Below are positions 37,084 to 60,498 of a stretch of DNA of 64,000 nt, one piece after another. A program made the position numbers and the translations under genes. The notes under the pieces are model-generated. The model was not told the DNA's origin. It saw only the letters and a program-made list of their open reading frames with translations, and made no database searches. The first letter of the stretch is position 1. Each line of letters opens with the position of its first letter. Source of the stretch: a virus (Duplodnaviria; Caudoviricetes); IMG/VR virus record IMGVR_UViG_3300005662_000021, positions 1 to 64,000 of that record; one strand, given 5' to 3'.

Positions 37084-38487
37084 ATGAACTTCTTAGACGC
37101 ATTACAAACAGAAGATACCTTAACTGAAAATGGTATGGTTACAAATTCATCAACTCTTAACGAGTGTGTGAATCTATTCTTCACCATTGGAGCAATGAGA
37201 GGACAAGACAAAGAAAGATTGTTAAGTCTATTCTCAAAGGCTTTCATTGAGAATCCTCAGACTGCATTGCGTATATTATTTTGGGCAAGAGATGTTCGTG
37301 GTGGTGCTGGTGAAAGACAAATATTCCGTGATATAATCCAACTCTTAGCAGAGGTGGCACCAGAAGTATTGGCGAAGAATATTAAATTCATTCCTGAATT
37401 CGGTCGTTGGGACGATATTACAGTCCTATTCAATACAAAAGTGAATGACGATGCGATTAACACAATAGTACAAGGTTTAGAAGCCAAAAATGGACTATGT
37501 GCAAAGTGGATGCCAAGAAAAGGAGTTATTTTTAACTCAATCAGGAAGGTTATGGGTCTTACACCAAAAACATTACGTAAAATGTTGGTAGTTCTTTCCA
37601 AAACGGTCGAGCAAAAGATGTGTGCTAACGAGTGGACAAATATTGAATACTCAAAAGTACCATCTTTGGCTATGGCTCGATACACCAAAGCATTCTCTAA
37701 ACACGATTTAACTGGTTTTGGAGTATACTTGGAATCATTGAAAAAAGGTGAGACTAAAGTAAACGCTGGGGCTGTATATCCATATGATATAGTTAAAACT
37801 TTGGGGCAAGGTGTCAAAGATTTGGCTGTAGAACAATGGAAAGCTCTTCCCAACTTTATGGAAGGAAGTACCGAAAGAATTTTACCAGTAGTTGATGTAT
37901 CAGGTTCAATGTCTACTAGTGCTGGTAACAACAATAATCTATCTTGTATGGATGTTGCAGTATCATTGGGATTGTACATTTCAGAAAGAAATGAAGGTTC
38001 TTTTAAAGACTCTTTCATTACATTCTCTGAGAGACCAAAATTACAAAAGTTGAGTGGTAATCTATATAATAGATACATACAACTACGTACTGCTGATTGG
38101 GGTATGAGTACAAACTTGGAGTCTGTGTTCAAATTGATTCTAAACCAATCAATTAAACATAATGTACCTCAAAGTGAAATGCCGACCAAAATCCTTATCT
38201 TATCGGATATGGAATTTAATCAAGCAACTGGACGTAATAATTCCGCAATTCAAATGATTCGTAAAGAATATGAGAATAGTGGATATCAACTACCTGGTAT
38301 TATCTTTTGGAACATACAATCGAGAGGAGATAACTTCCCAGTTCGTTTTGATGAAAGTGGTACAGCGTTAATATCTGGTTTTAGTCCATCAATCTTGAAG
38401 TCAATTCTTGGGGGAAAAGAACTATCACCAATATTAATTATGAATGAAACCATCGAGTCCGAAAGATATAAGATGATAGAAGTTTAA
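37084..38487 (+). CDS. TROVE-like/vWA protein (DUF2828-type, Ro60-related)
   Basis: RDVRGGAGER, GRWDD, AKWMPR, VVDVSGSM (MIDAS DxSxS), LILSDMEF, IIFWN, ISGFSP. Confidence 0.8.
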   Translation: MNFLDALQTEDTLTENGMVTNSSTLNECVNLFFTIGAMRGQDKERLLSLFSKAFIENPQTALRILFWARDVRGGAGERQIFRDIIQLLAEVAPEVLAKNIKFIPEFGRWDDITVLFNTKVNDDAINTIVQGLEAKNGLCAKWMPRKGVIFNSIRKVMGLTPKTLRKMLVVLSKTVEQKMCANEWTNIEYSKVPSLAMARYTKAFSKHDLTGFGVYLESLKKGETKVNAGAVYPYDIVKTLGQGVKDLAVEQWKALPNFMEGSTERILPVVDVSGSMSTSAGNNNNLSCMDVAVSLGLYISERNEGSFKDSFITFSERPKLQKLSGNLYNRYIQLRTADWGMSTNLESVFKLILNQSIKHNVPQSEMPTKILILSDMEFNQATGRNNSAIQMIRKEYENSGYQLPGIIFWNIQSRGDNFPVRFDESGTALISGFSPSILKSILGGKELSPILIMNETIESERYKMIEV

Positions 38488-38496
38488 AAAAATGGA

Positions 38497-38674
38497 AAAA
38501 TTGGTTTAAAAGGAATGATTACTGCAAAGTTAACACAACAAATCAATTAATCAAAATGGTAGCCGAGGATAGGTTCAAACCCTGTCACCCTCTGATAAGG
38601 AGGGGGGTTAGTCTCACTTTCCTAATCGCACGGGAATAAATTACTAACCAAAACCCATTCTGAAACCAATTTTT
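38497..38674 (+). ncRNA. CAGCAA-family stem RNA copy 1 containing a T-loop module
   Basis: AAAATTGGTTT/AAACCAATTTT outer stem, GAATG/CATTC inner stem then ATTACTGCAA; internal GATAGG-TTCAAAC-CCTGTC T-arm. Confidence 0.6.
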
Positions 38675-38731
38675 CCTATTTTTTCTTGACTTAATGAAAC
38701 TTTTAAATTAATTTTACGTTATATAGAACAA

Positions 38732-38791
38732 AGGATAGATTCAGCAAACTAAAAAAATCAAAACTTGTAAATTTGAACAAAAACTATCCTG
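38732..38791 (+). ncRNA. CAGCAA-family stem RNA copy 2
   Basis: AGGATAG/CTATCCT stem, ATTCAGCAA, A-rich loop. Confidence 0.6.
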
Positions 38792-38799
38792 ACAATTAA

Positions 38800-38863
38800 G
38801 GTTATAACGAATGACTTCAGCAACTTAAAAAAGACAGCACATCTTAAAAAATCATTCCGAACC
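38800..38863 (+). ncRNA. CAGCAA-family stem RNA copy 3
   Basis: GGTT/AACC outer, GAATGA/TCATTC inner stem, CTTCAGCAA, A-rich loop. Confidence 0.6.
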
Positions 38864-38907
38864 AAACTTTTTAATAATTTAGTAATATTTATAAACAAAT
38901 AACAAAA

Positions 38908-39003: not shown

Positions 39004-39031
39004 TGGTAAAAAAGATATTAATTTTTTATAC

Positions 39032-39064
39032 AAACCCTGGACAAAAGACGTTCAGGGTTTTTTT
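39032..39064 (+). terminator. terminator/attenuator upstream of tRNA array
   Basis: AAACCCTGGA...TTCAGGGTTT plus T-run. Confidence 0.75.
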
Positions 39065-39094: not shown

Positions 39095-39167
39095 TCCCCC
39101 TTGGTATAAAGGTTGATTACATCAGATTTTGAATCTGAGGATGGTGGTTCAATTCCATCAGGGGGAA
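39095..39167 (+). tRNA. tRNA-Gln(UUG)
   Basis: TCCCCCT/AGGGGGA acceptor; TCAGA-TTTTGAA-TCTGA. Confidence 0.9.
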
Positions 39168-39285
39168 CAATTTAAAGTGGTGAAATTTGACCACTTTAAA
39201 AAAAATATCAAATCTTGGAACTAATAGAACTTAAGGTTGGTTCATATAGATGAAAGTTGATTATTAAATTTTAAAATAAAAAATT

Positions 39286-39561
39286 ATGGAACTAGTAAGA
39301 AAGGGGGAATCGAGATGTTATGTATTCCGTGAAGAAGACATCCAAAAGGTATATGATACCATCAAAGAAATTGATAATTTTGAATTTGATTATATGCCTA
39401 ATAATTGGGTAACAGTTTTCAATAGTAAAGACGTACATAAAAACTATATGGTATATAATGGTAAATTTGACATTGATGTACCTAAACTGATTGACGAGTG
39501 TGGTAAAAGGGGTGTAGGTATCATTGTTAGGTCTACTAATATTCAAGATGATTGTTGGTAA
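39286..39561 (+). CDS. hypothetical protein
   Basis: 91 aa ORF. Confidence 0.6.
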   Translation: MELVRKGESRCYVFREEDIQKVYDTIKEIDNFEFDYMPNNWVTVFNSKDVHKNYMVYNGKFDIDVPKLIDECGKRGVGIIVRSTNIQDDCW

Positions 39562-39579
39562 AAAAAACTTGATAAAACA

Positions 39580-39611
39580 TTTGGAAATAAGAATATAGTG
39601 TCGTAATTTTG
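39580..39611 (+). promoter_or_regulatory. Bacteroidota-type sigma70 promoter
   Basis: TTTG-N20-TAATTTTG. Confidence 0.75.
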
Positions 39612-39615
39612 TGGA

Positions 39616-39681
39616 AGAGTAAGGAAAGGTCGTAGGTAGCACTGTCCACAACCAGCCTTAAACGTGGTGGATACTTACTCT
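39616..39681 (+). ncRNA. unclassified small structured RNA
   Basis: AGAGTAAG/CTTACTCT closing stem, TCCAC/GTGGA inner stem, starts right after promoter. Confidence 0.45.
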
Positions 39682-39711
39682 AAATTTTTTCAAACTTAAA
39701 ATATTAATTTT

Positions 39712-39903
39712 ATGACTAAAAATCAAATTTTAAATCTTGAAGTTGGGGATGTTATTCCAAATATGTTTGGTAAACTAAAAAAAGTCACAAGAATTTTACA
39801 TAAAGGAACTGACATTAATGGAAAAATGTTTGTTTATTTTTACCAAGAATTTGGGGATAGTAGTGAAATGTCTTCAACTTTAAAAGAAGGTAATCAAATA
39901 TAA
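39712..39903 (+). CDS. hypothetical protein
   Basis: 63 aa ORF. Confidence 0.55.
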   Translation: MTKNQILNLEVGDVIPNMFGKLKKVTRILHKGTDINGKMFVYFYQEFGDSSEMSSTLKEGNQI

Positions 39904-39908
39904 ATTAT

Positions 39909-39984
39909 GGTGGGATTGCCAAGTTGGTCAAGGCGAATAGCTGAAGATTATTTAATGTAGGTTCGATTCCTACTCCCACCACCA
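39909..39984 (+). tRNA. tRNA-Phe(GAA)
   Basis: GGTGGGA/TCCCACC; loop CTGAAGA; encoded CCA. Confidence 0.9.
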
Positions 39985-39999
39985 AACAACTATAAGACA

Positions 40000-40170
40000 A
40001 TGAGAAGCAAAACCGTAGATAGATTGCTGAAAAGCACACCGAAAGATGTAGAAATCTTTGTGGATTGGTATGCCGACCTGGTGGTTCGCATCAATCAGCT
40101 ATTGCGTGAAAACGACATCAGCAAAAAGGAACTCGCAGAGAAGATGGACAAAAAACCATCTGAAATTTAG
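40000..40170 (+). pseudogene. truncated XRE-family HTH regulator fragment
   Basis: LVVRINQLLRENDISKKELAEKMDKKPSEI then TAG then KW; higher GC than flanks. Confidence 0.6.
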
Positions 40171-40183
40171 AAATGGATTATAT

Positions 40184-40256
40184 GAGGTATGAACCCAAAT
40201 GGAGAGGGACAACATTGTGGATGTTGGTTTAGTGAGTTCGATTCTCATCATACCTA
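40184..40256 (+). tRNA. tRNA-His(GUG)
   Basis: G-1, AGGTATG/CATACCT; CAACA-TTGTGGA-TGTTG; A73 rather than C73. Confidence 0.85.
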
Positions 40257-40268
40257 CTTAAACAAATT

Positions 40269-40355
40269 GGAAAGTTAAGCTCGGCGGCCCGAGTCTACGT
40301 CTTGAAAACGATAGGTACAATTGTATTGTATGGGGCTCGACACCTCAGCTTTCCG
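40269..40355 (+). tRNA. tRNA-Ser(UGA)
   Basis: GGAAAG/CTTTCC; loop CTTGAAA; long variable arm; atypical T loop. Confidence 0.75.
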
Positions 40356-40364
40356 CAAATATTT

Positions 40365-40437
40365 AGTCCCATAGTTCAATGGATTAGAACCGAACAATAC
40401 GAATGTTCAAATACCCGTTCAAATCGGGTTGGGACTA
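40365..40437 (+). tRNA. tRNA-Arg(ACG)
   Basis: AGTCCCA/TGGGACT; GAACA-ATACGAA-TGTTC. Confidence 0.85.
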
Positions 40438-40445
40438 CAAAACTC

Positions 40446-40568
40446 AGTCTTGTGGCGGAATGGTAGACGCAGCTGTGATAACTTCGCTGGAAGGTGAATC
40501 TCCTTTAAAATATTAGCAGGGTCAATCAGTTCTCAGTTATCGTATAGGTTCAAATCCTATCAAGACTA
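40446..40568 (+). ncRNA. tRNA-Leu-like shell S1 (anticodon arm replaced)
   Basis: AGTCTTG/CAAGACT-A, GCGGAATGGTAGACGC D arm, T arm TATAGG-TTCAAAT-CCTAT; insert with GATAACT/AGTTATC stem. Confidence 0.75.
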
Positions 40569-40640
40569 CAAAAAAAAATTTTAAATCTTGGAACTAAATG
40601 GTGAGAGAAGGGGTTTATGTAAATGAATTTAGAAACAATT

Positions 40641-40727
40641 GGAGGATAAAGTAATCAGGGTCGTTACCACCGCCTGCTAAGCGAGTGGCACCAAGTATGG
40701 TGTGGGGTTCGTGTCCTCTGTCCTCCG
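40641..40727 (+). tRNA. tRNA-Ser(GCU)
   Basis: GGAGGAT/GTCCTCC; loop CTGCTAA; long variable arm. Confidence 0.85.
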
Positions 40728-40743
40728 CAAAAAAATATTAATA

Positions 40744-40811
40744 AGATTAGAGCAGTTGAGTTCATAACTCAAAGGAATGCAGACAGTGGAGATGAGCGAC
40801 CCACCTAATCA
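40744..40811 (+). ncRNA. unclassified small structured RNA
   Basis: GATTAG/CTAATC closing stem with GAGTT/AACTC and GTGG/CCAC hairpins. Confidence 0.4.
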
Positions 40812-40842
40812 TTTTAAATGAATAAAAAAATATTCCAAAGTG

Positions 40843-40874
40843 TTTGGAAATTAGAAAATGAAATCGTAATTTTG
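40843..40874 (+). promoter_or_regulatory. Bacteroidota-type sigma70 promoter
   Basis: TTTG-N20-TAATTTTG directly upstream of shell S2. Confidence 0.75.
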
Positions 40875-40886
40875 TGATACAATAAT

Positions 40887-41034
40887 AGTCCTGTGGCGGA
40901 ATTGGTAGACGCTATTAAGATAACTAAGGCAGTATATTTTCTCGGAGTAAATATGCAAAGTCATAGTGTTGTACAGATTATCCGAGTGACGAGTACATGC
41001 TTAATTTTTACAGGTTCGAATCCTGTCAGGACTA
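40887..41034 (+). ncRNA. tRNA-Leu-like shell S2
   Basis: AGTCCTG/CAGGACT-A, D and T arms; insert has two hairpins with complementary loops CTCGGA/TCCGAG. Confidence 0.75.
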
Positions 41035-41247
41035 CAAAAAATTAAAAAATAAAAGTTATGGACACACATTATTGGGTAAGATTTGAGATTAGAATTGAAA
41101 CTATCAACAATCAATTAACTTCTGATGAACAAAAAGAAATCTTTGACTATATAAAATCAAGAATTGACGGTAGAGATGACATAGATAGACCTAAAAAGTT
41201 GGATTGTTGTTTTGTCAATATGAGGAAATTTTAGATAAGTTAAATCA

Positions 41248-41377
41248 AGTCCTGTGGCGAAAGCTAAGGGTAGAGTGAAGATTGAATGTTCAGACACTCC
41301 TTAATACTAGGATTGGAGCGAAAGGTCTAACATAAACAATATGTAGCTTAATACGGGTTCGAATCCTGTCAGGACTA
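41248..41377 (+). ncRNA. tRNA-Leu-like shell S3 (degenerate D arm)
   Basis: AGTCCTGTGGCG...TACGGGTTCGAATCCTGTCAGGACTA; AAGCTA/TAGCTT insert stem. Confidence 0.7.
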
Positions 41378-41404
41378 TTTTTTAAACTATAAAATTAAAA
41401 TATA

Positions 41405-41617
41405 ATGAACGCAAGAAAAGAAATACTTGGAAAAATAGAAGAGTTTGAAAAACGTGTGAAGTATTGGAAAGATAGACAAATAAATTTTAAATGGACAGAA
41501 GAAACTATAAAAGAGGGTGACCCATTATTTGTAATGTGTCAAGATTTTGAACATTCTTTTAAAGAAAAAATATTACTCTTGCAATGGGTATTAGATTTAA
41601 TTAAAGATGAAAATTAA
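41405..41617 (+). CDS. hypothetical protein
   Basis: 70 aa ORF. Confidence 0.55.
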   Translation: MNARKEILGKIEEFEKRVKYWKDRQINFKWTEETIKEGDPLFVMCQDFEHSFKEKILLLQWVLDLIKDEN

Positions 41618-41956
41618 AACAAACTAATATGATAAATAAAATTTCAGCACTTTTTGCACTTTTAATCGGTATAATGTATTTTTCTTTATTTGCATACGAT
41701 ATAGAATATGACCGAGATTTAATGACTTGGTTTTGGCTATTATTTTCCGAAATTTGGTTTATGATTAGTTTACGTTTTTGGATTTTATATGATAAAAATA
41801 ATTAAAAAATGTTAGTAATTATTGGTCTTTTATTTTTGATAATTGGAATCTTATTCTTAATTTTGTCTTACAAAACAAAGAACTCAGACTTGTTTATAGT
41901 TGGAATTATATTTCTAATTGTTCTTTTGTTTGGATTTATATATGGTTTAATAATAT

Positions 41957-42031
41957 AGAGTAGTAGCGCAATTGGTAGCGCACTCGGTTTGGGACCGAGA
42001 GATTTTGCAGGTTCGAGTCCTGTCTACTCTA
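41957..42031 (+). tRNA. tRNA-Pro(UGG)
   Basis: AGAGTAG/CTACTCT; CTCGG-TTTGGGA-CCGAG. Confidence 0.9.
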
Positions 42032-42039
42032 CAAGATTT

Positions 42040-42116
42040 AGGAAAGTATCCCCTCAGCCTTATACGCCGTAGAAAGGGTAACTGGTAACATATGGGTTCG
42101 AACCCCATCTTTCCTA
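42040..42116 (+). tRNA. non-canonical D-arm-less tRNA-like RNA, anticodon UAU (Ile)
   Basis: AGGAAAG/CTTTCCT-A acceptor; loop CTTATAC; T arm ATGGG-TTCGAAC-CCCAT; only 8 nt before anticodon stem. Confidence 0.65.
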
Positions 42117-42129
42117 CAAAATTATAATA

Positions 42130-42206
42130 CGGCAAGTATACCCTCCGTCTGATACACGGTAGAAAGGTTAATTGGTTACATATAGGTTCGATTCCTATCT
42201 TGCCGA
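42130..42206 (+). tRNA. non-canonical D-arm-less tRNA-like RNA, anticodon GAU (Ile)
   Basis: CGGCAAG/CTTGCCG-A; CCGT-CTGATAC-ACGG; T arm ATAGG-TTCGATT-CCTAT; paralog of 42040. Confidence 0.7.
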
Positions 42207-42215
42207 CAACAATAA

Positions 42216-42289
42216 GTCTCAGTAACTCAGTGGTTTAGAGTTCTCGACTGTTAATCGAGTGGTCGTAGGTTCGAATCCTACCTGGGACG
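42216..42289 (+). tRNA. tRNA-Asn(GUU)
   Basis: GTCTCAG/CTGGGAC; loop CTGTTAA. Confidence 0.92.
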
Positions 42290-42305
42290 CAAATTTTAAT
42301 AAATT

Positions 42306-42533
42306 ATGGTTAATGTAAAAATTGGTGAATTTAAGGTTGGTGATAAGTTGTTTATTGATTATAGTGAAGATAATCCAAACAATAAACACATCGAAATTAG
42401 AGCAATTGTGGATATGGAGGTGGTGATTTATTTGGATGACAAAAATAACTACCATATGGAACCAATTCATTACTTCAATGTGTTATGTAGATGTCACTCA
42501 CTTAAAAAAATAACAAATGAAACGGACAATTAG
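42306..42533 (+). CDS. hypothetical protein
   Basis: 75 aa ORF. Confidence 0.55.
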   Translation: MVNVKIGEFKVGDKLFIDYSEDNPNNKHIEIRAIVDMEVVIYLDDKNNYHMEPIHYFNVLCRCHSLKKITNETDN

Positions 42534-42672
42534 AAAACCAAGTTCTGCAAAGTTTTATGAAATGCTTAGAAATAAGTACAACAACTACATTAAGAAACAA
42601 GAAAATGAAATGGAAGATTCTACAAATTAGATTCCAACCTAAAAAATTTAATTAACAATATATAATTTTCAT

Positions 42673-43182
42673 ATGAAAAAAGAGTTTTTATTTAATGATA
42701 ACATTATTGATTTTGAATTTGACGAAGTAATAGATAAAAAAATAAATGTTAAGGTATTTCACTATTTCAATAATAATCTTTTATTTGAAAAAATTGATGA
42801 TAGAATAATTTGTCTTAAAGGTATTGGTAAATTATTCTTTCAAGAAGGATTCCCAATTTCATTATCTATTTCAAAATTAAAAGAACAAGGGGTTGAGGTT
42901 AGTATATTACACGTTGCTGATGAATGTTTAAAAAATGGGTGGTCACCAATCACAACATATAATAAATTAAAATCTGACTTTGAAGAAGATATTGACAAAG
43001 AAAATCATTATGATTTACATTTATTAAAAAAATTTTGTGAATCAAATTATGAAGACCAAAGAGAAATGATATTTGAATATCTGTTTAAATGCAAAACTGA
43101 TGATGTTAGAAATAAAAAAAATGAAAATCCAATAAATTGGTTACAATCACTTGTAACTAGTGGGGCTAAAAATAAACTTTAA
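42673..43182 (+). CDS. hypothetical protein
   Basis: 169 aa ORF. Confidence 0.65.
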   Translation: MKKEFLFNDNIIDFEFDEVIDKKINVKVFHYFNNNLLFEKIDDRIICLKGIGKLFFQEGFPISLSISKLKEQGVEVSILHVADECLKNGWSPITTYNKLKSDFEEDIDKENHYDLHLLKKFCESNYEDQREMIFEYLFKCKTDDVRNKKNENPINWLQSLVTSGAKNKL

Positions 43183-43191
43183 CAAGAAAAT

Positions 43192-43266
43192 GACCCTGTA
43201 GCTTAGCTGGTTTAAAGCACAATACTTTTAATATTGGGAGCGGGAGTTCGAATCTCCCCAGGGTCA
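43192..43266 (+). tRNA. tRNA-Lys(UUU)
   Basis: GACCCTG/CAGGGTC; CAATA-CTTTTAA-TATTG. Confidence 0.92.
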
Positions 43267-43275
43267 CAACACAAT

Positions 43276-43360
43276 GTCCTTATGGTGTAATGGTTAAACA
43301 TCCCACTCTTACAAAGTGGAGACGAGAAGTATAATCCTAGTTCGAATCTAGGTAAGGACA
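43276..43360 (+). tRNA. tRNA-Val(UAC) with enlarged variable region
   Basis: GTCCTTA/TAAGGAC; CCACT-CTTACAA-AGTGG; ~16-nt variable region. Confidence 0.85.
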
Positions 43361-43388
43361 CATTAAATGATTTTTAAAATATAAAAAA

Positions 43389-43637
43389 ATGAAAAAAATA
43401 TTATTTCTTGGTTTGATATCTGTATTATTCCTTAGTTGCAAAAGAGAAGCTAAAGAAGAAATAGAAACAGATAATACTAATTATAGTGTTGAACTTCTAT
43501 TTGAAGTTGATGGATGTAAAGTCTATCGATTTTTGGATGGTGAATTCCATTATTTCACAACTTGTAATGGTTCTGTAACTCATAAAAGTAATGAAAAAAA
43601 CTCCAAAGATTTGGAAATACAAACCGTTGTGAAATAA
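43389..43637 (+). CDS. lipoprotein (DUF4884-like)
   Basis: lipobox LFLSC; YSVELLFEVDGCKVYRF. Confidence 0.6.
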   Translation: MKKILFLGLISVLFLSCKREAKEEIETDNTNYSVELLFEVDGCKVYRFLDGEFHYFTTCNGSVTHKSNEKNSKDLEIQTVVK

Positions 43638-43643
43638 AGATTT

Positions 43644-43705
43644 GAACAATTAAGGGACCGAGCCTGCCTACAATTTCGGTGTGAGGTGCTAGTAGGTAAT
43701 TGTTC
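43644..43705 (+). ncRNA. candidate pseudoknotted small RNA
   Basis: GAACAATTA/TAATTGTTC; ACCGA/TCGGT hairpin; loop CCTAC complementary to 3' GTAGG. Confidence 0.45.
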
Positions 43706-43718
43706 TTTATGTTATAAT

Positions 43719-43852
43719 AGTACCACGAGGCATCCCATAAGAACTGCTCACTGCTGTGGTCTTGTTGCTTGTAAACGAATAGCCCAAGGTATAAGTTAGG
43801 AAGCTTAACTCAACCTATCCCCCACTGACGAGTGGGGTGAAGTTGGGGGATT
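43719..43852 (+). ncRNA. unclassified structured RNA
   Basis: ACCAC/GTGGT, AGTTA/TAACT, CCCCACT/AGTGGGG hairpins; GC-rich intergenic. Confidence 0.4.
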
Positions 43853-43868
43853 AAAAAAGAAACAATAG

Positions 43869-43954
43869 GGTCGGGTGGCCGAGTTGGTTAAGGCACTAGT
43901 CTGCAAAACTATCGAATGAAAAATTCATCGTGGGTTCAAATCCCTCCCCGACCT
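43869..43954 (+). tRNA. tRNA-Cys(GCA) with long variable arm
   Basis: GGTCGGG/CCCGACC-U73; loop CTGCAAA; GAAT/ATTC variable stem. Confidence 0.88.
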
Positions 43955-44015
43955 CAAAAAAAAAGTTCAGTTAGTTATTTTTACTCATTTTGTTGATATT
44001 TATATATATATATAT

Positions 44016-44765: not shown

Positions 44766-44793
44766 AAGTTATTATTATCTTTACAAAACATAT

Positions 44794-53149: not shown

Positions 53150-53158
53150 TTTAAAACT

Positions 53159-53431: not shown

Positions 53432-53436
53432 AATTT

Positions 53437-53582
53437 AGTCCTGTGGCGGAATGGAAGACGTTTGGGTGCAAATCCCATTAGCCCAAAGGGGGTTACAATA
53501 TATTGAGGTTCGATTCCTCTACTGGTACGGATGTGTCAGATTGGCGTTGTTGTAAATACAGGTTCGATTCCTGTCAGGACTA
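53437..53582 (+). ncRNA. tRNA-Leu-like shell S5 with a nested second T arm
   Basis: AGTCCTG/CAGGACT-A; TTTGGG/CCCAAA hairpin; TTACAATA/TGTTGTAA arm containing GAGG-TTCGATT-CCTC. Confidence 0.75.
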
Positions 53583-53590
53583 CAACATTT

Positions 53591-53674
53591 AAAACATCAA
53601 CTCGTAAAGAAAATGATGGCAAAGAGGTTCAGATAAAGGTAACGAGCTCCTACCTACCCTGAACAAGATGTTTT
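53591..53674 (+). ncRNA. candidate pseudoknotted small RNA
   Basis: AAAACATC/GATGTTTT, GTTCAG/CTGAAC, AGGTA/TACCT; loop ACGAG complementary to 5' CTCGT. Confidence 0.5.
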
Positions 53675-53683
53675 AATTAATAT

Positions 53684-53797
53684 GGTCAAGTGGCGGAATG
53701 GAAGACGCTAAGTAAGATGGTGTACGTTTGTCCCATAAGAAAGACCGATGCAACAGAAATGTGAAGGGTCGTATAGGTTCAAATCCTATCTTGACTA
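53684..53797 (+). ncRNA. tRNA-Leu-like shell S6
   Basis: GGTCAAG/CTTGACT-A; GCGGAATGGAAGACGC; TATAGG-TTCAAAT-CCTAT. Confidence 0.75.
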
Positions 53798-53800
53798 CAA

Positions 53801-53984
53801 TGAGTAAGAGATACTCAGCAGTCTTAGTAAAGACTTAAATCTATACTCGGTTCTAAAGGGGACATCGTGAACGCCCCTTTCATGGGAATAAAGGCAGGTA
53901 GCAGAGCCTCCCAGTAGCTTGACTAATTTTAAGAGGGATGACCCACAGGTTTATTGAAAGCAAGAAAACCGATATATCTACTCA
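53801..53984 (+). ncRNA. CAGCAA-family-like stem RNA copy 4 with multi-hairpin interior
   Basis: TGAGT/ACTCA and AGATA/TATCT stems followed by CTCAGCAG; four internal hairpins. Confidence 0.5.
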
Positions 53985-54010
53985 CTTGGAATCTCAGAGT
54001 GGGGAAATTT

Positions 54011-54098
54011 GCACCCATAGCTCAACTGGACAGAGCAACCGCCTTCTAAGCGGAAGGGTACCGAAAGGTCATTGTAGGTTCGAGTCCTACTGGGTGTA
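54011..54098 (+). tRNA. tRNA-Arg(UCU) with long variable arm
   Basis: GCACCCA/TGGGTGT; loop CTTCTAA; ACC-GAAA-GGT variable stem. Confidence 0.88.
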
Positions 54099-54164
54099 CT
54101 AAATTTTAATAGTAGCTATTGGTTTGAATTATTGATTTGTTTATATTTATAGTAAAATACTATT

Positions 54165-54770
54165 ATGGAACAAAACAAATTCAATAAAGAAGATTTAGAA
54201 AACTTAATTCACACACAAAATAAGAGTTATCGTGAAATTGGTAAATTGTACGGAGTTAGTGACACTTATATCAAAAAAATAGCAAGAAAACTTGGTATAG
54301 AGTTATTGGTTAGAAAAGTGTTTCCTAAAGATTTTACCCCAATAAATAAAGGTACTTGTGAAATACTTACTTGTAAAAATTGTCTAGCTACTTTTCAAAA
54401 AAAATATGGTAATCCGAAATTTTGTTGTCATAGTTGTAGTATTGATTATAGACAAAAAAATAAATACAATCATTATTTATTCAACCAACAAGAATTTACT
54501 AATTGTATTTCAGATATGAAATGGTTTAAGAAATATATTCTTGAAGAACAAAATGAAAAATGTAATATTTGTAATATTGATAATTTTTGGAATGGTAAAC
54601 CATTGAAGTTCATTTTAGACCATATTGATGGAAATGCCGCTAACAATACAAGAAATAATTTAAGACTGATTTGTCATAATTGTGATTCCCAATTGGACAC
54701 TTACAAATCAAAAAATAAAAATTCGGCTAGAAAAAATAGGTATTTTTTAAACTATAAAAACAAATTATAA
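54165..54770 (+). mobile_element. free-standing HNH endonuclease gene
   Basis: N-terminal HTH; CNIC...ILDHIDGNAANNTRNNLRLICHNCDSQ. Confidence 0.85.
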
Positions 54771-54966
54771 AATTATGAAATTTAAAGTAGGAGACAAAGT
54801 TTACAAACCGAAAGGTTACAAATTCCCAGGTATAGTTGTTGCGGTATTCCAAACCACATCTGGTGAAACGAGAATTGTTGCAGAATTAATTGATAATGGT
54901 ATGTTACACATATTTAGTGAGAGTCAGCTTGAACTTGATATAAACTAAATAAATCATTATTAAGAT

Positions 54967-55224
54967 ATGAATTCTAAATTAACACAAAATAAAACACCTC
55001 TTCAAAACGTTATAGATAAAGTTGAAAAACTTACTAGAGAAGCTAAACAGAATACAGAGGAAAAAAGAAAATTAAACATAGTTATTTCTTATCTTTGGGA
55101 CGAGTTACAAAATGAAAGATATGTAATGTCTGAAATTTATGAAAAAAGTAAAAAAGAAGATAATGAAGTAACTGGAAAAATGTGGATTGAAAAAAATTTT
55201 ATAGACTATCAAAAATTTTTATAA
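54967..55224 (+). CDS. hypothetical protein
   Basis: 85 aa ORF. Confidence 0.55.
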   Translation: MNSKLTQNKTPLQNVIDKVEKLTREAKQNTEEKRKLNIVISYLWDELQNERYVMSEIYEKSKKEDNEVTGKMWIEKNFIDYQKFL

Positions 55225-55357
55225 TGAAAGACGAAAATCAAGGTAAAACAAATGACCAAAGAGAATTTGCAATGTTTATGTTCTCTGGTTCAATGTTAGC
55301 ACTAATTGTATTAGGATTGGTTTATCTAATCAAATTTGGATTTAACCTTTAAAAAAG

Positions 55358-55441
55358 ACCTGAGTGGTGGAATGGTAGACACGTTTGGCTTAGACCCAAA
55401 TTCCGTTTAAAGGAGTAAGAGTTCGAATCTCTTCTTAGGTA
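55358..55441 (+). tRNA. tRNA-Leu(UAG)
   Basis: ACCTGAG/CTTAGGT; TTTGG-CTTAGAC-CCAAA. Confidence 0.9.
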
Positions 55442-55461
55442 CAAAAATTGGACATAAAAAA

Positions 55462-55959: not shown

Positions 55960-56382
55960 ATGAAATACAAAATATATTTGGATGATGAAAGAACTCCTAA
56001 TGATAAGGATTGGACTATTGTTAGAAATTATGGTCAATTCATCAAAAAGATTTCTGAAATTGGATTAGAAAATGTAGCAGTAATTTCATTTGACCATGAT
56101 TTGGGCGACACTGCGGTTGAAGAATATTACACAAACGTAATGAATAAAGGTATATTAGATTATGATAATATTGAAGAAAAAACTGGATATGATGCAGCTA
56201 AATGGTTGGTTGAACAATATATGGACAACATTACAAGTCCTTTCCCTCAAGTATATGTTCACTCAGCCAATCCTATTGGAGCTATTAATATTATTAATTA
56301 TGTTAATCGTTTCCTAAGACATATCGGTAAGAAACAAACCGCAAAATTAAAAGTAGAACCTTTCACCATTCAACATAAATAA
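55960..56382 (+). CDS. cyclic-phosphate processing receiver-domain protein
   Basis: IYLDDERTP, ISFDHDLG, TGYDAAKWL, VHSANPIG. Confidence 0.8.
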   Translation: MKYKIYLDDERTPNDKDWTIVRNYGQFIKKISEIGLENVAVISFDHDLGDTAVEEYYTNVMNKGILDYDNIEEKTGYDAAKWLVEQYMDNITSPFPQVYVHSANPIGAINIINYVNRFLRHIGKKQTAKLKVEPFTIQHK

Positions 56383-57034
56383 AAATGATATTAACAGAAC
56401 AACAAGAAAAATTTTTTGAGTTTGTCAAAGAACAACATGGCACTCAAGTGAGAAAATATACGGGTGAACCTTATTGGACTCATCCATTGGCTGTCGCAGA
56501 ATTAGTAAATAAATATAAATCAGATTCTTTTAGTAATGGTGAAGTATTTGCTATAGAAATATCGTTAGGTCATGATTTATTGGAAGATACTCCTTGTACT
56601 GTTGAAACTTTAAGAAAAAAATTAAGTGAGATTGGTTATCCCTATTTAAGTACTGAGATGATTGTTTCAGGTATTGGTCATTTAACCGACACCTATACTA
56701 AAGAAGCATATCCTAAACTCAATAGAGCCAAAAGAAAAGCTATGGAAGTTGAAAGGCTTGGTAGAATCCCTGCTTATTGTCAAACAATTAAATATGCTGA
56801 CTTGATTGAGAACATTTCATCTATTGTTGAGTATGATAAATCTTTCGCTGTTACTTATCTTCAAGAGAAAAAAGAGTTACTTAAGAATATGAGGGGTGGA
56901 AATTTTAATCTTTACTTGAAAGCAATAGAAGTTTATTTGGAAGCTTTAAAAACTCTTGAGGGGTAAAAGGATTTTGATAAAATTCCTTATTGCCCAAAGT
57001 AAAACCTTTCACCATCCAACATAAATAAAAATGA
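56350..57034 (+). repeat. 39-bp direct repeat flanking the HD gene (56350-56388 and 56996-57034)
   Basis: AAAGTA(G/A)AACCTTTCACCAT(T/C)CAACATAAATAAAAATGA. Confidence 0.9.
56385..56966 (+). CDS. HD-domain phosphohydrolase (SpoT/Mesh1-like)
   Basis: HGTQVRKYTGEPYWTHP, HDLLEDT, IKYADLIEN. Confidence 0.85.
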   Translation: MILTEQQEKFFEFVKEQHGTQVRKYTGEPYWTHPLAVAELVNKYKSDSFSNGEVFAIEISLGHDLLEDTPCTVETLRKKLSEIGYPYLSTEMIVSGIGHLTDTYTKEAYPKLNRAKRKAMEVERLGRIPAYCQTIKYADLIENISSIVEYDKSFAVTYLQEKKELLKNMRGGNFNLYLKAIEVYLEALKTLEG

Positions 57035-58074: not shown

Positions 58075-58095
58075 TTAACCAATTAAAGTTATTTT

Positions 58096-58587
58096 ATGAA
58101 CATTTTTTTCTTGGACTACGATGTTGTTAAATGTGCAAAGTATCATTGTGATAAACATTGTATCAAACAATTATTGGAATCAGCACAATTATTATGTGGT
58201 GCCCACCACGTAACAAATTCCAAATTGGATATCCCTTATAAATTATCCCACAAAAATCACCCTTGTTCAATATGGGTTAGAGAATCATTATCTAACTATT
58301 TATACCTATGTGAACTTGGATTGGAATTGTGTAAGGAGTATACTTATAGATATGGAAAACGTCATAAGTCCCAGGATGTTATTGAGTGGTGTGTAACAAA
58401 TTTTGTCAATATTTGTGACAAAGGTTTCACTGAACCACCCAAAGCAATGCCTGATGAATATAAGGTTAAAGACGTTATTCAATCTTATAGGAACTATTAC
58501 ATTGGGGCAAAAAAAGATTTTGTTTCTTGGAAGAATCGTGATGTTCCCTATTGGTTTTGTGAAGAAAATCACTTAGAATTAGCATAA
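58096..58587 (+). CDS. pyrimidine dimer DNA glycosylase-family protein
   Basis: MNIFFLD...HCDKHCIKQLLESAQLL...HKNHPCSIWVR...QSYRNYY. Confidence 0.75.
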   Translation: MNIFFLDYDVVKCAKYHCDKHCIKQLLESAQLLCGAHHVTNSKLDIPYKLSHKNHPCSIWVRESLSNYLYLCELGLELCKEYTYRYGKRHKSQDVIEWCVTNFVNICDKGFTEPPKAMPDEYKVKDVIQSYRNYYIGAKKDFVSWKNRDVPYWFCEENHLELA

Positions 58588-58683
58588 AAATAAAACTATG
58601 AATATATTCAATAAAATAATGACAGGATTTTGGTTTATACTATTTCTTCTATTTTTATTTACAATTAGAAAAAGGAGGAAGGC

Positions 58684-58923
58684 ATGAAAGAAAAATTAAC
58701 AAAGTTTCAAACAAAGGTTTGGCAAACAATTGAACCCATAATTAAAAAAGAATCTTATCAAGTTAATTTGACATTTGATGACGAATTTGTAATAACAAGA
58801 GATTCTAAATTTACAATTAAAATTTTTCCCAAAAAAGAAGTTTCAATAACAAAAGACAATACAATAATTTTTGAGGAAAAAGATATTACTGAATTTGTAA
58901 AATTTTTGGAAGAAATTAATTAA
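58684..58923 (+). CDS. hypothetical protein
   Basis: 79 aa ORF. Confidence 0.55.
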   Translation: MKEKLTKFQTKVWQTIEPIIKKESYQVNLTFDDEFVITRDSKFTIKIFPKKEVSITKDNTIIFEEKDITEFVKFLEEIN

Positions 58924-58997
58924 AAAAAGTCCCCATTTAATTTTGATATTAGGTGGGGATTTCTTAATTTTGTGAAACAATTAAAACGAATAAAACA

Positions 58998-59486
58998 ATG
59001 GGAACAAACTACTACAGAATTCCAAGTGTGGAAGAAATGGAAAAAAGAAAACAAGAATTGATTGATACCATTAATTCTTTAGATATTCATCCATTTTCAA
59101 TTCAAAGAAACTTTAGAACAATTAAAAAACAAATTGATTCTATTGATTATTACTCAATTTGGGATTTGTTTGTTGAAGGTGCAAACATTCACTTAGGTAA
59201 ACGTAGTAGTGGATGGAAGTTTTTATGGAATTTCAATGACAAAAAATTTTATTCAAATAAAGAAGAATTATTGAACTTTATAAGAACAGGTAGGGTTGTA
59301 GATGAGTATGGTAATGAAATGGATGTTGAAGAGTTTATCACAATGGCACTAGTATGGGGACAACCTGATGGTTATGACCATAAAAAATATCGTAGAGAAC
59401 ATCCACGACAATACCACTACGATTTTGAACAACCTGAAGAATATATAGATGGATTAAGAGTTTCACCAAATACTGAATTTAGTTAA
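58998..59486 (+). CDS. conserved phage hypothetical protein
   Basis: MGTNYY...IHLGKRSSGWKFLW. Confidence 0.7.
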   Translation: MGTNYYRIPSVEEMEKRKQELIDTINSLDIHPFSIQRNFRTIKKQIDSIDYYSIWDLFVEGANIHLGKRSSGWKFLWNFNDKKFYSNKEELLNFIRTGRVVDEYGNEMDVEEFITMALVWGQPDGYDHKKYRREHPRQYHYDFEQPEEYIDGLRVSPNTEFS

Positions 59487-59487
59487 T

Positions 59488-60498
59488 ATGGAAAGAAAAT
59501 TAGCGAGCATACAAATAGTAAAAGAAGTTAGACCAATAGTTGGGGCTGACGCTATAGAAGTTGTTAGAATAAACAATTGGGATGTTGTATCCAAAAAAGG
59601 AGAATACAAAGTTGGAGACTTTTGTATCTATTGTGAGATTGACTCCTTCTTACCCATTAAAGAAGAATTTGAATTCTTAAGAAAAACATCATACAAAAAA
59701 ATGTCTGATGGTAGTGAAGGATTTAGATTGAAAACAATAAGATTAAGAGGACAATTAAGTCAAGGTCTATTGTTACCAATAAGTGTTCTTCCAATTGATA
59801 TGGAACTAACTGAAGGAGAAGATGTTACTGAAATGTTGGGTATATTTAAATACGAACCCCCAATTCCAGCGGAACTTCAAGGTAAAGTTAAAGGTATGTT
59901 TCCATCTTTTATAAGAAAAACAGATGAAGAACGTATCCAAAACTTATCAAGTGAATACGAAAATATCAGATTGTCTGGTAAGGCATTTTATGTCACTGAG
60001 AAGTTGGATGGTTCAAGTGCTACATTCTACTACAAGGATGGTGTATTTGGGGTGTGTGCAAGAAATCTTGAGCTATTGGAGACTGAGGGTAATTCCTTTT
60101 GGAAAGTTGCAAGAGAATTGAATTTGGAGGAATCTTTATCTAAATTGGGTTATAATGTATGTGTTCAAGGTGAAATCATCGGAGAAGGAATCCAAGGTAA
60201 CCCATACAAGATAAAAGGTCAAACTGTTAAATTCTTCAACGCATTTAATATTGATGAACAAAAAAATATCCAATTTACTAAATTCCTAATGTTAATGGAA
60301 GATTTGGGTTTAAAAACAGTTCCAATATTGGATTACGAATTTGTACTTCCAAAATCAATTGATGAATTATTGTTATTTGCTGAAGATAAATCTCAACTTA
60401 ATGGGAACTTTGATAGGGAGGGTGTTGTTATAAGAGCATATGATAGAACAATATCATTCAAAGTTATATCAAACAAATTTTTGTTAAACGAAAAATAA
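59488..60498 (+). CDS. ATP-dependent RNA ligase (DRB0094/Rnl2-like)
   Basis: N-terminal OB-like module; TEKLDGSS (motif I), QGEIIG, FFNAF, REGVV, SFKVISNKFLL. Confidence 0.9.
   Translation: MERKLASIQIVKEVRPIVGADAIEVVRINNWDVVSKKGEYKVGDFCIYCEIDSFLPIKEEFEFLRKTSYKKMSDGSEGFRLKTIRLRGQLSQGLLLPISVLPIDMELTEGEDVTEMLGIFKYEPPIPAELQGKVKGMFPSFIRKTDEERIQNLSSEYENIRLSGKAFYVTEKLDGSSATFYYKDGVFGVCARNLELLETEGNSFWKVARELNLEESLSKLGYNVCVQGEIIGEGIQGNPYKIKGQTVKFFNAFNIDEQKNIQFTKFLMLMEDLGLKTVPILDYEFVLPKSIDELLLFAEDKSQLNGNFDREGVVIRAYDRTISFKVISNKFLLNEK

What the first reader, a model, noticed from the sequence alone, without database searches (positions are those of the whole stretch)
37084..60498. Integrated RNA-repair / translation-rescue island
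Seen on one strand: TROVE-like protein with repeated RNAs, 22 canonical tRNAs, about 10 tRNA-like RNAs, a cyclic-phosphate receiver domain, a SpoT/Mesh1-like HD hydrolase and an RNA ligase. A metallophosphoesterase lies at 16599. Established: RNA ligases with end-healing enzymes counter anticodon nucleases (T4 Pnk/Rnl1 versus PrrC), and phage tRNAs can replace cleaved host tRNAs. Inference: a multi-layer counter-defence that replaces, decoys, heals and re-ligates tRNA and dampens ppGpp.
Basis: partly seen in the sequence, partly recalled or inferred. Interest (0 to 1): 0.75.

Follow-up and report, generated by a model that had tools for sequence, protein, structure and literature searches.

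The report
Phage Ro-like RNP, tRNA array, RNA-repair genes
A large Bacteroidota-type phage carries, on one strand, a Ro60-like protein gene with its own hairpin RNAs, a nearly complete tRNA set and an RNA-ligase cluster; this kind of region is already described for jumbo phages, but the hairpin RNA that travels with the Ro-like gene and tRNA arrays in many phage families appears not to be.

Summary
All listed genes and RNAs are present on the + strand: DUF2828/DUF7788 (Ro60/TROVE-like), 21 cloverleaf tRNAs, about 10 tRNA-like RNAs, cREC, an SpoT/Mesh1-type HD hydrolase and an Rnl5 RNA ligase.

The theme (tRNA supply plus RNA repair in jumbo phages) is published (Iyer et al. 2021). The region is a mosaic, not one co-inherited unit:
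- The HD gene is a cassette flanked by 39-nt repeats and is missing from the 82% clade.
- cREC is missing from a 98% relative.
- Four near-complete Rnl5 jumbo phages lack DUF2828.
- No 5' kinase was found.
- The metallophosphoesterase is an MPPED2-like cyclic-nucleotide phosphodiesterase 20 kb away.

Two linkages are real:
- cREC, an EndoV-like gene and Rnl5 recur in that order.
- DUF2828 lies beside tRNA arrays in every lineage checked, including isolates of five phage families.

DUF2828 comes with a covarying hairpin RNA carrying a CAGCAA loop motif. The model gave 92 hits in DUF2828 loci against 1 in control loci, and Rfam has no match. A sibling first-reader note on this window had already flagged that RNA.

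"Decoy" and "dampens ppGpp" are untested. The HD could equally remove toxSAS pyrophosphate from tRNA 3' ends.

The parts
37027..38487 (+). DUF2828+DUF7788 protein (Ro60/TROVE-vWA-like 'RNA-binding protein'). The likely true start is the ATG at 37084.
   Evidence: Pfam and PHROG hits. Relatives align from residue ~14-22 onward. With its own families excluded, the nearest named Atlas clusters are TROVE+vWA_Ro60, score 0.93. MIDAS-like VDVSGSMS motif is present.
38494..38676 (+). Long-stem RNA 'Y1'. A 14-bp plus 6-bp closing stem is followed by ATTACTGCAA. The interior holds a T-arm-like hairpin that some relatives lack.
   Evidence: Fold gives -51.5 kcal/mol. Conserved down to the 71-73% clade, with a compensatory GAATG/CATTC to GTATG/CATAC change in L014.
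38732..38790 (+). CAGCAA hairpin RNA, copy 2: a 7-bp stem closing an A-rich loop that begins with TTCAGCAA.
   Evidence: R1 hit at 56.8 bits. The stem covaries across lineages.
38808..38858 (+). CAGCAA hairpin RNA, copy 3.
   Evidence: R1 hit at 34.4 bits.
39030..39063 (+). Intrinsic terminator-like hairpin plus T-run, closing the DUF2828-RNA unit 30 nt before tRNA-Gln.
   Evidence: Read directly from the sequence. Conserved in alignment A1.
39095..55442 (+). tRNA array. It holds 21 cloverleaf tRNAs for 19 amino acids. Five of them (Val, Cys, Met, Thr, Arg-TCT) have enlarged variable arms. Small ORFs, a T9SS-sorted protein and an SGNH hydrolase are interspersed.
   Evidence: ARAGORN, Rfam, Pfam. 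Gene content is a mosaic compared with close relatives.
39612..39690 (+). Small stem-closed RNA behind a Bacteroidetes-type promoter. It is 98.7% identical in the clade whose flanks are only ~78% identical.
40446..40568 (+). tRNA-Leu-like 'shell' 1 of 6. The others are at 40889-41034, 41249-41376, 49688-49781, 53437-53582 and 53684-53797. Acceptor, D and T arms are conserved; the middle is an unrelated insert.
   Evidence: Repeat families D1, D6 and D8, Rfam tRNA hits of 93-146 nt, folds. No tRNA-model hit longer than about 90 nt in seven sampled loci of other lineages.
42040..42206 (+). Two paralogous 77-nt tRNA-like genes (42040-42116 and 42130-42206). They lack a D arm, have an 18-nt variable region and carry anticodons UAU and GAU (Ile).
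   Evidence: Rfam alignment. 92.9% identical in the 78% clade. Ile is the one amino acid missing from the ordinary tRNAs.
44016..44765 (+). HNH/homing-endonuclease-like ORF. Others lie at 50198-50779, 54165-54770 and 57106-58074. These are mobile insertions in the array.
   Evidence: Pfam and PHROG hits. Presence varies among relatives.
55960..56382 (+). cREC, a cyclic-phosphate-processing receiver domain protein.
   Evidence: PF20274 2e-23. Lies within about 5 kb of Rnl5 in 37 of 80 Rnl5 loci. Absent from the 98% relative L106.
56385..56966 (+). SpoT/Mesh1-type HD hydrolase (small-alarmone-hydrolase-like). The cassette is flanked by 39-nt direct repeats at 56350-56388 and 56996-57034.
   Evidence: Repeat D20. 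Absent from the 82% clade.
58096..58587 (+). T4 endonuclease V (Pyr_excise)-like protein, phrog_624. It is conserved between cREC and Rnl5.
   Evidence: The order cREC, this gene, Rnl5 occurs in 19 loci down to 62% Rnl5 identity.
58998..59486 (+). 162-aa protein of an unnamed family. Its stop codon lies 1 nt before the Rnl5 start codon.
   Evidence: 2122 homologues and no Pfam family. AF2 model with pLDDT 93 and no solved-structure match. Found beside Rnl5 in L031 and L162, and near DUF2828 in L029-33 and L042/45.
59488..60498 (+). Rnl5-family ATP-dependent RNA ligase (NgrRnl/DraRnl type), with K172 in the KLDG motif.

Best explanation
This is the RNA and translation-support region of a roughly 300-kb jumbo phage of a Bacteroidota host. 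It is built from three separately evolving modules that share one theme: keeping a usable tRNA pool during infection.

(1) A Ro60-like DUF2828 protein is encoded with its own hairpin RNAs (CAGCAA loop motif) at the head of the tRNA array. By analogy with Ro60/Y RNA, it probably forms an RNP that handles structured or damaged small RNAs. This step is inferred.

(2) The array holds 21 ordinary tRNAs, two D-arm-less Ile-type tRNAs and tRNA-Leu-derived scaffold RNAs. It supplies phage-made tRNAs. It has been invaded by homing endonucleases and unrelated accessory genes.

(3) A cREC, EndoV-like, p162, Rnl5 cluster is predicted to process 2',3'-cyclic-phosphate ends and seal nicked RNA. A recently inserted SpoT/Mesh1-type hydrolase cassette sits in it. 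That enzyme could hydrolyse alarmones or strip pyrophosphate from tRNA 3' ends.

Shown here: gene and RNA identities, synteny, covariation and recurrence in other phages. Not shown: any binding, enzymatic activity or counter-defence effect.
For: Identities.

Host type: the Bacteroidetes promoter motif occurs 16 times against 5.3 expected. One ORF carries a T9SS sorting domain.

Genome size: relatives' contigs of 128-141 kb are estimated to be 43-48% complete.

DUF2828 and tRNA arrays:
- In 80 IMG/VR loci, every tRNA but one lies downstream of DUF2828.
- tRNA arrays flank DUF2828 in KVP40, Sf17, WIL-1, BUCT-ZZ01 and Los1, isolates of five phage families.

Hairpin RNA:
- The motif is 18-fold enriched downstream of DUF2828.
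- Model R1 gives 92 hits in DUF2828 loci against 1 in 1.42 Mb of Rnl5 loci.
- In the five isolates it gives 8 hits of at least 24.8 bits, against a best of 17.5 bits in four tRNA-rich control loci.
- Among the 10 isolate hits aligned (E up to 0.1), 100% of positions pair and 5 of 7 pairs change on both sides.

Literature:
- Abundant ncRNAs lie beside the Rsr-like gene of a P100-like Listeria phage (PMC12282133).
- A phage Ro60 binds adjacent Y-like RNAs and host PNPase (PMC12135203).
- Phage SSU5 small alarmone hydrolase removes the toxSAS modification from tRNA (bioRxiv 10.1101/2024.07.05.602228).
- Jumbo-phage tRNA arrays, RNA ligases, cREC and TROVE proteins are reviewed in PMC7824862.

cREC, EndoV-like gene and Rnl5: same order in 19 loci. 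cREC lies 2.7-3.1 kb upstream of Rnl5 in two distant jumbo contigs.
Against: - The modules are not co-inherited. Four of four near-complete Rnl5 jumbo contigs lack DUF2828, and 2 of 5 DUF2828 contigs hold Rnl5.
- The HD gene is absent from the 82% clade, and cREC is absent from a 98% relative.
- Unrelated genes sit inside the array: a T9SS-sorted protein, an SGNH hydrolase and lipoproteins.
- No polynucleotide kinase is present in the window or in relatives' incomplete contigs.
- DUF2828 gives no significant hit to Pfam TROVE or to solved Ro60 structures.
- The EndoV-like protein and p162 have no assigned role.
- A near-complete tRNA set is equally expected from codon-usage adaptation in a 30% GC phage.
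Confidence: 0.65

Rival explanations
1. Plastic accessory hot-spot. The tRNA array exists for codon supply in an AT-rich phage. The flanking genes are independent accessory genes that accumulate where insertions are tolerated. Nothing functionally integrates them.
For: - Gene content is a mosaic among relatives of 93-98% identity.
- Homing-endonuclease ORFs are inserted, and the HD cassette is flanked by repeats.
- Unrelated secreted or lipid-active proteins sit in the array.
- Rnl5 phages lack DUF2828.
- Anticodons are mostly U34 or G34, fitting A/T-ending codons.
Against: - DUF2828 sits next to tRNA arrays in at least six unrelated phage groups and brings a dedicated RNA with it.
- The order cREC, EndoV-like gene, Rnl5 is kept down to 62% Rnl5 identity.
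- Listeria phage WIL-1 independently groups DUF2828, HD, RtcB, an RNA ligase and a phosphoesterase beside its tRNAs.
Confidence: 0.25
2. A single integrated, multi-layer counter-defence replaces host tRNAs, decoys tRNases with tRNA-like RNAs, heals ends (cREC plus the metallophosphoesterase), re-ligates them (the RNA ligase) and lowers ppGpp.
For: - The components are present.
- There is precedent for phage tRNAs and RNA repair as counter-defence (PMC7824862).
- Related arrays carry tmRNA, a true rescue RNA.
Against: - The metallophosphoesterase is an MPPED2-like cyclic-nucleotide phosphodiesterase homologue. It lies 20 kb away among genes on the opposite strand.
- No 5' kinase was found.
- Rnl5 is the nick-sealing family, not Rnl1.
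- The shells were not seen in sampled loci of other lineages, and nothing tests decoy action.
- The window has no tmRNA.
- The components do not strictly co-occur.
Confidence: 0.12
3. The DUF2828 RNP serves the phage's own tRNA array. It would handle quality control, maturation or protection of polycistronic pre-tRNA transcripts, possibly by recruiting host PNPase. It would not repair damage inflicted by host defences.
For: - DUF2828 lies on the same strand as the tRNA array and adjacent to it in the isolates of all five families examined.
- CAGCAA hairpins sit in the gaps between tRNAs in Sf17 and KVP40, where tRNA processing would release them.
- Ro60 with Y RNA and PNPase degrades structured RNA (PMC4201824; PMC12135203).
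Against: - About half of the IMG/VR DUF2828 loci show no tRNA within 10 kb.
- Mycobacteriophage homologues come from ~75-kb genomes; their tRNA content was not examined here.
- There is no direct evidence of binding or of tRNA substrates.
Confidence: 0.3

Closest known systems
Jumbo-phage RNA-repair and tRNA-provisioning systems (Iyer, Anantharaman, Krishnan, Burroughs and Aravind 2021, Viruses, PMC7824862, section 3.4.9)
   Same: [quoted passage not shown]
   Different: The passages retrieved from that survey mention neither the DUF2828-associated hairpin RNA nor the positional coupling of DUF2828 to tRNA arrays. Here no PNK/HAD healing enzyme was found, and the ligase is Rnl5.
Salmonella rsr-yrlBA-rtcBA RNA-repair operon, and Ro60/Y RNA/PNPase (RYPER) complexes
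   Same: A Ro60-type protein is encoded next to its own stem-closed ncRNAs (some tRNA-like) and next to an RNA ligase and cyclic-phosphate enzymes (PMC7790460, listed; PMC4201824).
   Different: The protein is DUF2828, not Pfam TROVE. The RNAs lack the GNCGAA motif and give no Rfam hit. The ligase is Rnl5 rather than RtcB. The whole is embedded in a phage tRNA array.
P100-like Listeria phages (WIL-1, CKA15): tRNA array, DUF2828/Rsr-like gene, HD, RtcB, RNA ligase, phosphoesterase
   Same: The same gene themes appear, all on the same strand as the tRNAs. CAGCAA hairpins lie just upstream of DUF2828. The HD protein shares the HD..EDT motif. Abundant ncRNAs have been reported there (PMC12282133).
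   Different: This is a different phage family and host phylum. The tRNAs lie upstream rather than downstream. The ligases are RtcB and an Rnl2-like enzyme, and no cREC is annotated.
T4 Pnkp/Rnl1 healing and sealing against PrrC
   Same: The concept is the same: a phage-encoded RNA ligase restoring cleaved tRNA.
   Different: Neither Pnkp nor Rnl1 is present. Rnl5 (NgrRnl type) seals nicks in duplex RNA contexts and has no demonstrated tRNA-repair role.

Membership tests
Rnl5 RNA ligase (NgrRnl/DraRnl, TIGR02306) | N-terminal OB domain fused to a nucleotidyltransferase domain | tested here: met
   PF21189 8e-39 at residues 5-98 and PF09414 9e-23 at residues 167-326. Aligns end to end with NgrRnl 5cot, E 5e-78.
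Rnl5 RNA ligase (NgrRnl/DraRnl, TIGR02306) | Equivalog HMM score above the curated cut-off, and the KxDG adenylylation motif | tested here: met
   TIGR02306 scores 215 bits against a cut-off of 151. K172 lies in KLDGSS.
Rnl5 RNA ligase (NgrRnl/DraRnl, TIGR02306) | Seals 3'-OH/5'-phosphate nicks in which the 3'-OH strand is RNA | not testable with these tools
   This is a biochemical property.
cREC (PF20274) | Profile match above the gathering score, with the conserved acidic residues of the receiver fold | tested here: met
   83.3 bits against 27. LDDER and SFDHDLG motifs are read in the translation.
cREC (PF20274) | Hydrolysis of 2',3'-cyclic phosphate or cyclic ADP-ribose | not testable with these tools
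   This activity is only predicted in the literature (PMC7824862).
RelA/SpoT-type HD hydrolase / small alarmone hydrolase (Mesh1, PaSpo) | Pfam HD_4 match above the gathering score | tested here: inconclusive
   21.8 bits against a cut-off of 27.2. However, TIGR00691 N-terminus scores 4e-13, Lmo0812 4yf1 scores 7e-7, and Mesh1 3nqw aligns over residues 13-185.
RelA/SpoT-type HD hydrolase / small alarmone hydrolase (Mesh1, PaSpo) | Hydrolase motifs: RxxxGxPYxxHP, HDxxED(T), and a later (K)xAD..xN | tested here: met
   RKYTGEPYWTHP, HDLLEDT and KYADLIEN are read in the translation and in the alignments.
Ro60/TROVE protein | Match to the TROVE domain (PF05731) or to solved Ro60 structures | tested here: inconclusive
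   No PF05731 hit. The profile of 17 relatives hits phage TROVE protein 9l5y only at E 0.12, over the MIDAS region. Language-model neighbours are TROVE+vWA_Ro60, score 0.93.
Ro60/TROVE protein | C-terminal vWA domain with a MIDAS motif, and adjacent stem-closed ncRNA genes | tested here: met
   DUF7788 is present with the VDVSGSMS motif. Hairpin RNAs accompany the gene across lineages.
YrlA / Y RNA (Rfam; Chen et al. 2014) | Match to the Rfam Y-RNA-type models, or the GNCGAAN0-1G motif with T and D arm mimics | tested here: not met
   No Rfam hit at E up to 5 across 38488-39094. No GNCGAA motif in 38494-38858. Only Y1 has a T-arm-like hairpin, and close relatives lack it.
T4-type healing-and-sealing (Pnkp + Rnl1) or RtcB pathway | A polynucleotide 5'-kinase/3'-phosphatase, or RtcB | tested here: not met
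   The only Walker-A match in the 64-kb window is a single, unconvincing one in an ORF with no Pfam family. No AAA_33 in relatives' contigs, which are only 24-50% complete. No RtcB among the ORFs scanned. The rest of the genome has not been seen.

The most novel reading that the evidence does not exclude
DUF2828 and the CAGCAA-loop hairpin RNA together form a previously undescribed, very widespread class of phage Ro/Y-like ribonucleoprotein. It is evolutionarily coupled to phage tRNA arrays in model phages as well: KVP40-like, FelixO1-like and P100-like phages, cyanophages and Campylobacter phages. Its job would be surveillance or protection of the phage tRNA pool. In this phage lineage the tRNA-Leu 'shells' and the D-arm-less Ile tRNAs would be further products of the same tRNA-centred system.
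Probability: 0.4. Interest if true: 0.75.

Novelty: new member of a known kind. Interest (0 to 1): 0.55.

Why it matters
As an 'island', this is one more example of the tRNA-plus-RNA-repair regions already catalogued in jumbo phages.

Checking it turned up something more useful. The Ro-like DUF2828 gene occurs in 711 isolated phage genomes. In every lineage examined it sits beside the tRNA array and carries a dedicated, covarying hairpin RNA that Rfam does not hold.

The same trio is present in culturable phages of E. coli/Shigella, Vibrio and Listeria. The open question of what phage Ro-like proteins do, and why they travel with tRNAs, therefore becomes directly testable by RIP-seq and deletion.

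The work also separates the linkages that hold (cREC with Rnl5; DUF2828 with its RNA and tRNAs) from those that do not (the metallophosphoesterase; strict co-inheritance of the ligase with the Ro-like gene).

Tried and rejected
- Megablast of 8 kb against isolated phages gave no match. No whole genome is held for the window.
- The Burroughs and Aravind 2016 paper could not be read. Statements about it rest on memory and on the 2021 review.
- p162: the first AlphaFold model from a shallow alignment was poor (pLDDT 60). The deeper alignment gave pLDDT 93. Foldseek against the PDB, VIA-align wide (best Z 2.2) and AFDB clusters returned only noise or uncharacterised proteins. No function is assigned.
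- The p162 HMM finds the family next to Rnl5 only in the near clade, L031 and L162, so it is not a universal Rnl5 partner.
- The 466-aa neighbour of p162 in L161 is not DUF2828.
- A simple helix search around the motif was individually not significant in AT-rich DNA. The covariance model and independent test loci were used instead.
- Model R1 does not detect the long Y1 element, because of its large insert.
- A 'metallophosphoesterase as end-healing enzyme' reading was rejected on its position and its MPPED2 homology.
- The reading that tRNAs are 'always downstream of DUF2828' holds only for the IMG/VR lineages. In KVP40, WIL-1, BUCT-ZZ01 and Los1 the tRNAs lie upstream.
- A search for tRNA-Leu shells in seven loci of other lineages found none longer than about 90 nt.

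Full report
**Observation**

The window is AT-rich (about 30% GC). Between 36 and 62 kb every sizeable ORF is on the + strand.

- **Ro60/TROVE-like protein, 37027-38487.** It carries DUF2828 and DUF7788 and matches phrog_850 'RNA-binding protein'.
- **cREC receiver domain, 55960-56382.** PF20274 scores 83 bits against a cut-off of 27.
- **HD hydrolase, 56385-56966.** Its best solved relatives are small alarmone hydrolases and the SpoT/Rel hydrolase domain. The TIGR00691 N-terminus scores 4e-13. The motifs RKYTGEPYWTHP, HDLLEDT and KYADLIEN are present.
- **RNA ligase, 59488-60498.** It is an Rnl5-family enzyme: NgrRnl 5e-78, TIGR02306 above its cut-off, K172 in the KLDG motif.

ARAGORN finds 24 tRNAs. 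Of these, 21 are ordinary cloverleaves covering 19 amino acids, and Rfam confirms 19 of them.

The remaining RNAs are tRNA-like:
- six RNAs share tRNA-Leu-like acceptor, D and T arms around unrelated inserts of 30-80 nt;
- an odd element lies at 48824;
- two 77-nt paralogues at 42040 and 42130 lack a D arm and carry the Ile anticodons UAU and GAU. Ile is the one amino acid missing from the ordinary set.

The metallophosphoesterase at 16599 is real. It is an MPPED2-type cyclic-nucleotide phosphodiesterase homologue (2.7e-44). It lies 20 kb away between genes on the opposite strand. I do not count it as part of the region.

**What kind of phage**

Isolated phages give no close DNA match. IMG/VR holds relatives at 93-98% identity on contigs of 128-141 kb that CheckV rates 43-48% complete. 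The genome is therefore about 300 kb.

Two results point to a Bacteroidota host. The Bacteroidetes promoter pattern TTTG-N17-21-TAnnTTTG occurs 16 times against 5.3 expected. One ORF in the array carries a T9SS sorting domain.

**Is it one integrated island?**

*Against integration:*
- The array is a mosaic. Small ORFs, the T9SS protein and HNH genes differ between relatives of 93-98% identity.
- The zinc-finger homing-endonuclease-like ORF at 57044-58095 is absent from all near relatives.
- The HD gene is flanked by 39-nt direct repeats and is missing from the 82% clade.
- The 98% relative L106 has another gene where cREC sits.
- Four Rnl5-bearing jumbo contigs that are 93-100% complete have no DUF2828. 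A positive control in the same search did hit.
- Of five DUF2828 contigs, two hold Rnl5 and four hold cREC.
- No P-loop polynucleotide kinase is present in the window or in the incomplete relatives.

*For integration:*
- cREC lies within about 5 kb of Rnl5 in 37 of 80 Rnl5 loci. The order cREC, EndoV-like gene, Rnl5 is kept in 19 loci down to 62% ligase identity.
- In two DUF2828 lineages without Rnl5, cREC still follows the tRNA array.
- Listeria phage WIL-1 has 17 tRNAs, then DUF2828, an HD protein with the same HD..EDT motif, RtcB, NADAR, an RNA ligase and a phosphoesterase, all on one strand.

So the theme recurs, while the parts are exchangeable.

**The Ro-like gene, its RNA and tRNA arrays**

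In 80 IMG/VR loci every tRNA but one lies downstream of DUF2828.

DUF2828 occurs in 711 isolated phage records. I examined isolates of five phage families, and in all five it sits beside the tRNA array on the same strand:
- Vibrio phage KVP40;
- Shigella phage Sf17, where 26 tRNAs start 166 nt after the stop codon;
- Listeria phage WIL-1;
- Synechococcus phage BUCT-ZZ01, which also has a tmRNA;
- Campylobacter phage Los1.

The 600 nt after the gene in the window are conserved as well as the coding sequence, down to the 71-73% clade, and end in a terminator.

A sibling first-reader note (e1-5405902) had pointed to CAGCAA-containing stem RNAs in that stretch. Following that lead:
- The motif is 18-fold enriched in the 800 nt after DUF2828 across lineages of 58-98% identity.
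- The flanking 7-bp stem differs in sequence between lineages but stays complementary. I chose those units for having a helix, so that count is biased.
- I therefore built covariance model R1. It gives 92 hits in 1.37 Mb of DUF2828 loci, 91 of them on the gene's strand. It gives one weak hit in 1.42 Mb of Rnl5 loci.
- In the five isolate loci, none of which was used to build the model, R1 finds eight hits of at least 24.8 bits. They lie next to DUF2828 or in gaps between tRNAs. Four tRNA-rich loci without DUF2828 give at most 17.5 bits.
- The ten isolate hits aligned (E up to 0.1) pair at 100% of positions. Five of seven pairs change on both sides, against 36-44% pairing when the partner is slid. 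That alignment is fitted to the model, which favours pairing.

Rfam has nothing at this place, and the YrlA motif GNCGAA is absent.

Published work fits this reading. A P100-like Listeria phage shows highly abundant ncRNAs just upstream of its Rsr-like gene and downstream of its tRNAs (PMC12282133). A Thermus phage Ro60 binds adjacent Y-like RNAs and host PNPase (PMC12135203).

Whether DUF2828 is a true TROVE protein is not settled here. There is no PF05731 hit and only E 0.12 against a solved phage TROVE protein. The language-model neighbours, however, are TROVE+vWA_Ro60.

**Other parts**

- **EndoV-like protein (58096-58587).** It belongs to the Pyr_excise family and keeps the Glu that aligns with the T4 catalytic residue by spacing; that alignment is my own reading. 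Its role beside an RNA ligase is unexplained.
- **p162 (58998-59486).** Its stop codon lies 1 nt before the ligase start codon. The family has more than 2000 members and no Pfam family. A confident model (pLDDT 93) has no structural match. In other phages it sits next to Rnl5 with an AAA_33 kinase, or near an EndoV-like protein, a HAD_SAK_2 phosphatase and a metallophosphoesterase.
- **HD enzyme.** Alarmone hydrolysis is the published guess for jumbo phages. Phage SSU5's small alarmone hydrolase, however, removes the 3'-pyrophosphate that toxSAS defence toxins put on tRNA. That activity would fit the tRNA context better. Neither possibility was tested here.

**Verdict**

'Decoy', 'healing by the metallophosphoesterase' and strict integration are not supported.

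The most valuable result is the association of DUF2828, the CAGCAA hairpin RNA and the tRNA array across many phage families. It can be tested in laboratory phages.

Noticed in passing
window 42040-42116 and 42130-42206: Two paralogous tRNA-like genes have no D arm (4 nt in its place) and an 18-nt variable region that looks like a displaced D loop. Their anticodons are UAU and GAU. They would supply the Ile isoacceptors that the ordinary tRNA set lacks. The second copy is 92.9% identical in a clade whose flanks are only ~78% identical.
   Followed up: partly
window 43276, 43869, 50787, 52528, 54011: tRNA-Val, Cys, Met, Thr and Arg(TCT) have 13-18-nt variable arms, some closed by GAAA tetraloops. 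In related loci, 28 of 374 tRNAs other than Leu, Ser and Tyr are 82 nt or longer, mostly in this clade.
   Followed up: partly
window 51078-51139: Match to the freshwater-1 RNA motif (RF02979): 68.7 bits, E 3e-14, just under the gathering score of 72. It lies in the 204-nt gap between tRNA-Tyr and tRNA-Gly.
   Followed up: no
L093 15421-15830, L125 15225-15640; L032 15754-16171, L064 15335-15756, L118 4971-5278: Related phages carry GOLLD RNA about 5 kb downstream of Rnl5, and tmRNA genes at or in their tRNA arrays. The window itself has neither.
   Followed up: no
window 58998-59486: p162 belongs to a large, unnamed phage protein family: 2122 homologues and 828 representative clusters. A confident predicted fold has no match in the PDB. 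The family recurs in RNA-repair neighbourhoods.
   Followed up: yes
window 39198-39266, 40571-40639, 48914-48982: A second repeated upstream element, (A)n-TCTTGGAACTAA-N14-16-GGTT-ATATA-ATG, precedes tRNA-Ser and two small ORFs. It is distinct from the TTTG/TAnnTTTG promoters and may be a phage-specific promoter or a leader.
   Followed up: no
window 18207-19985, 21298-22131(-), 22438-24306, 26496-27524(-): The phage encodes a GAF-PAS histidine-kinase-like protein, a 277-aa class II aaRS catalytic core without an anticodon-binding domain (AsnRS/AsnA/EpmA-like), a full-length Hsp70/DnaK (HSP70 3.6e-256) and a GMP-reductase/IMPDH-like protein.
   Followed up: no
window 60812-61225: A 137-aa ORF downstream of the ligase contains an HEIAHLMLGH zincin-type motif (ImmA/IrrE-like by eye). 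It was not scanned.
   Followed up: no
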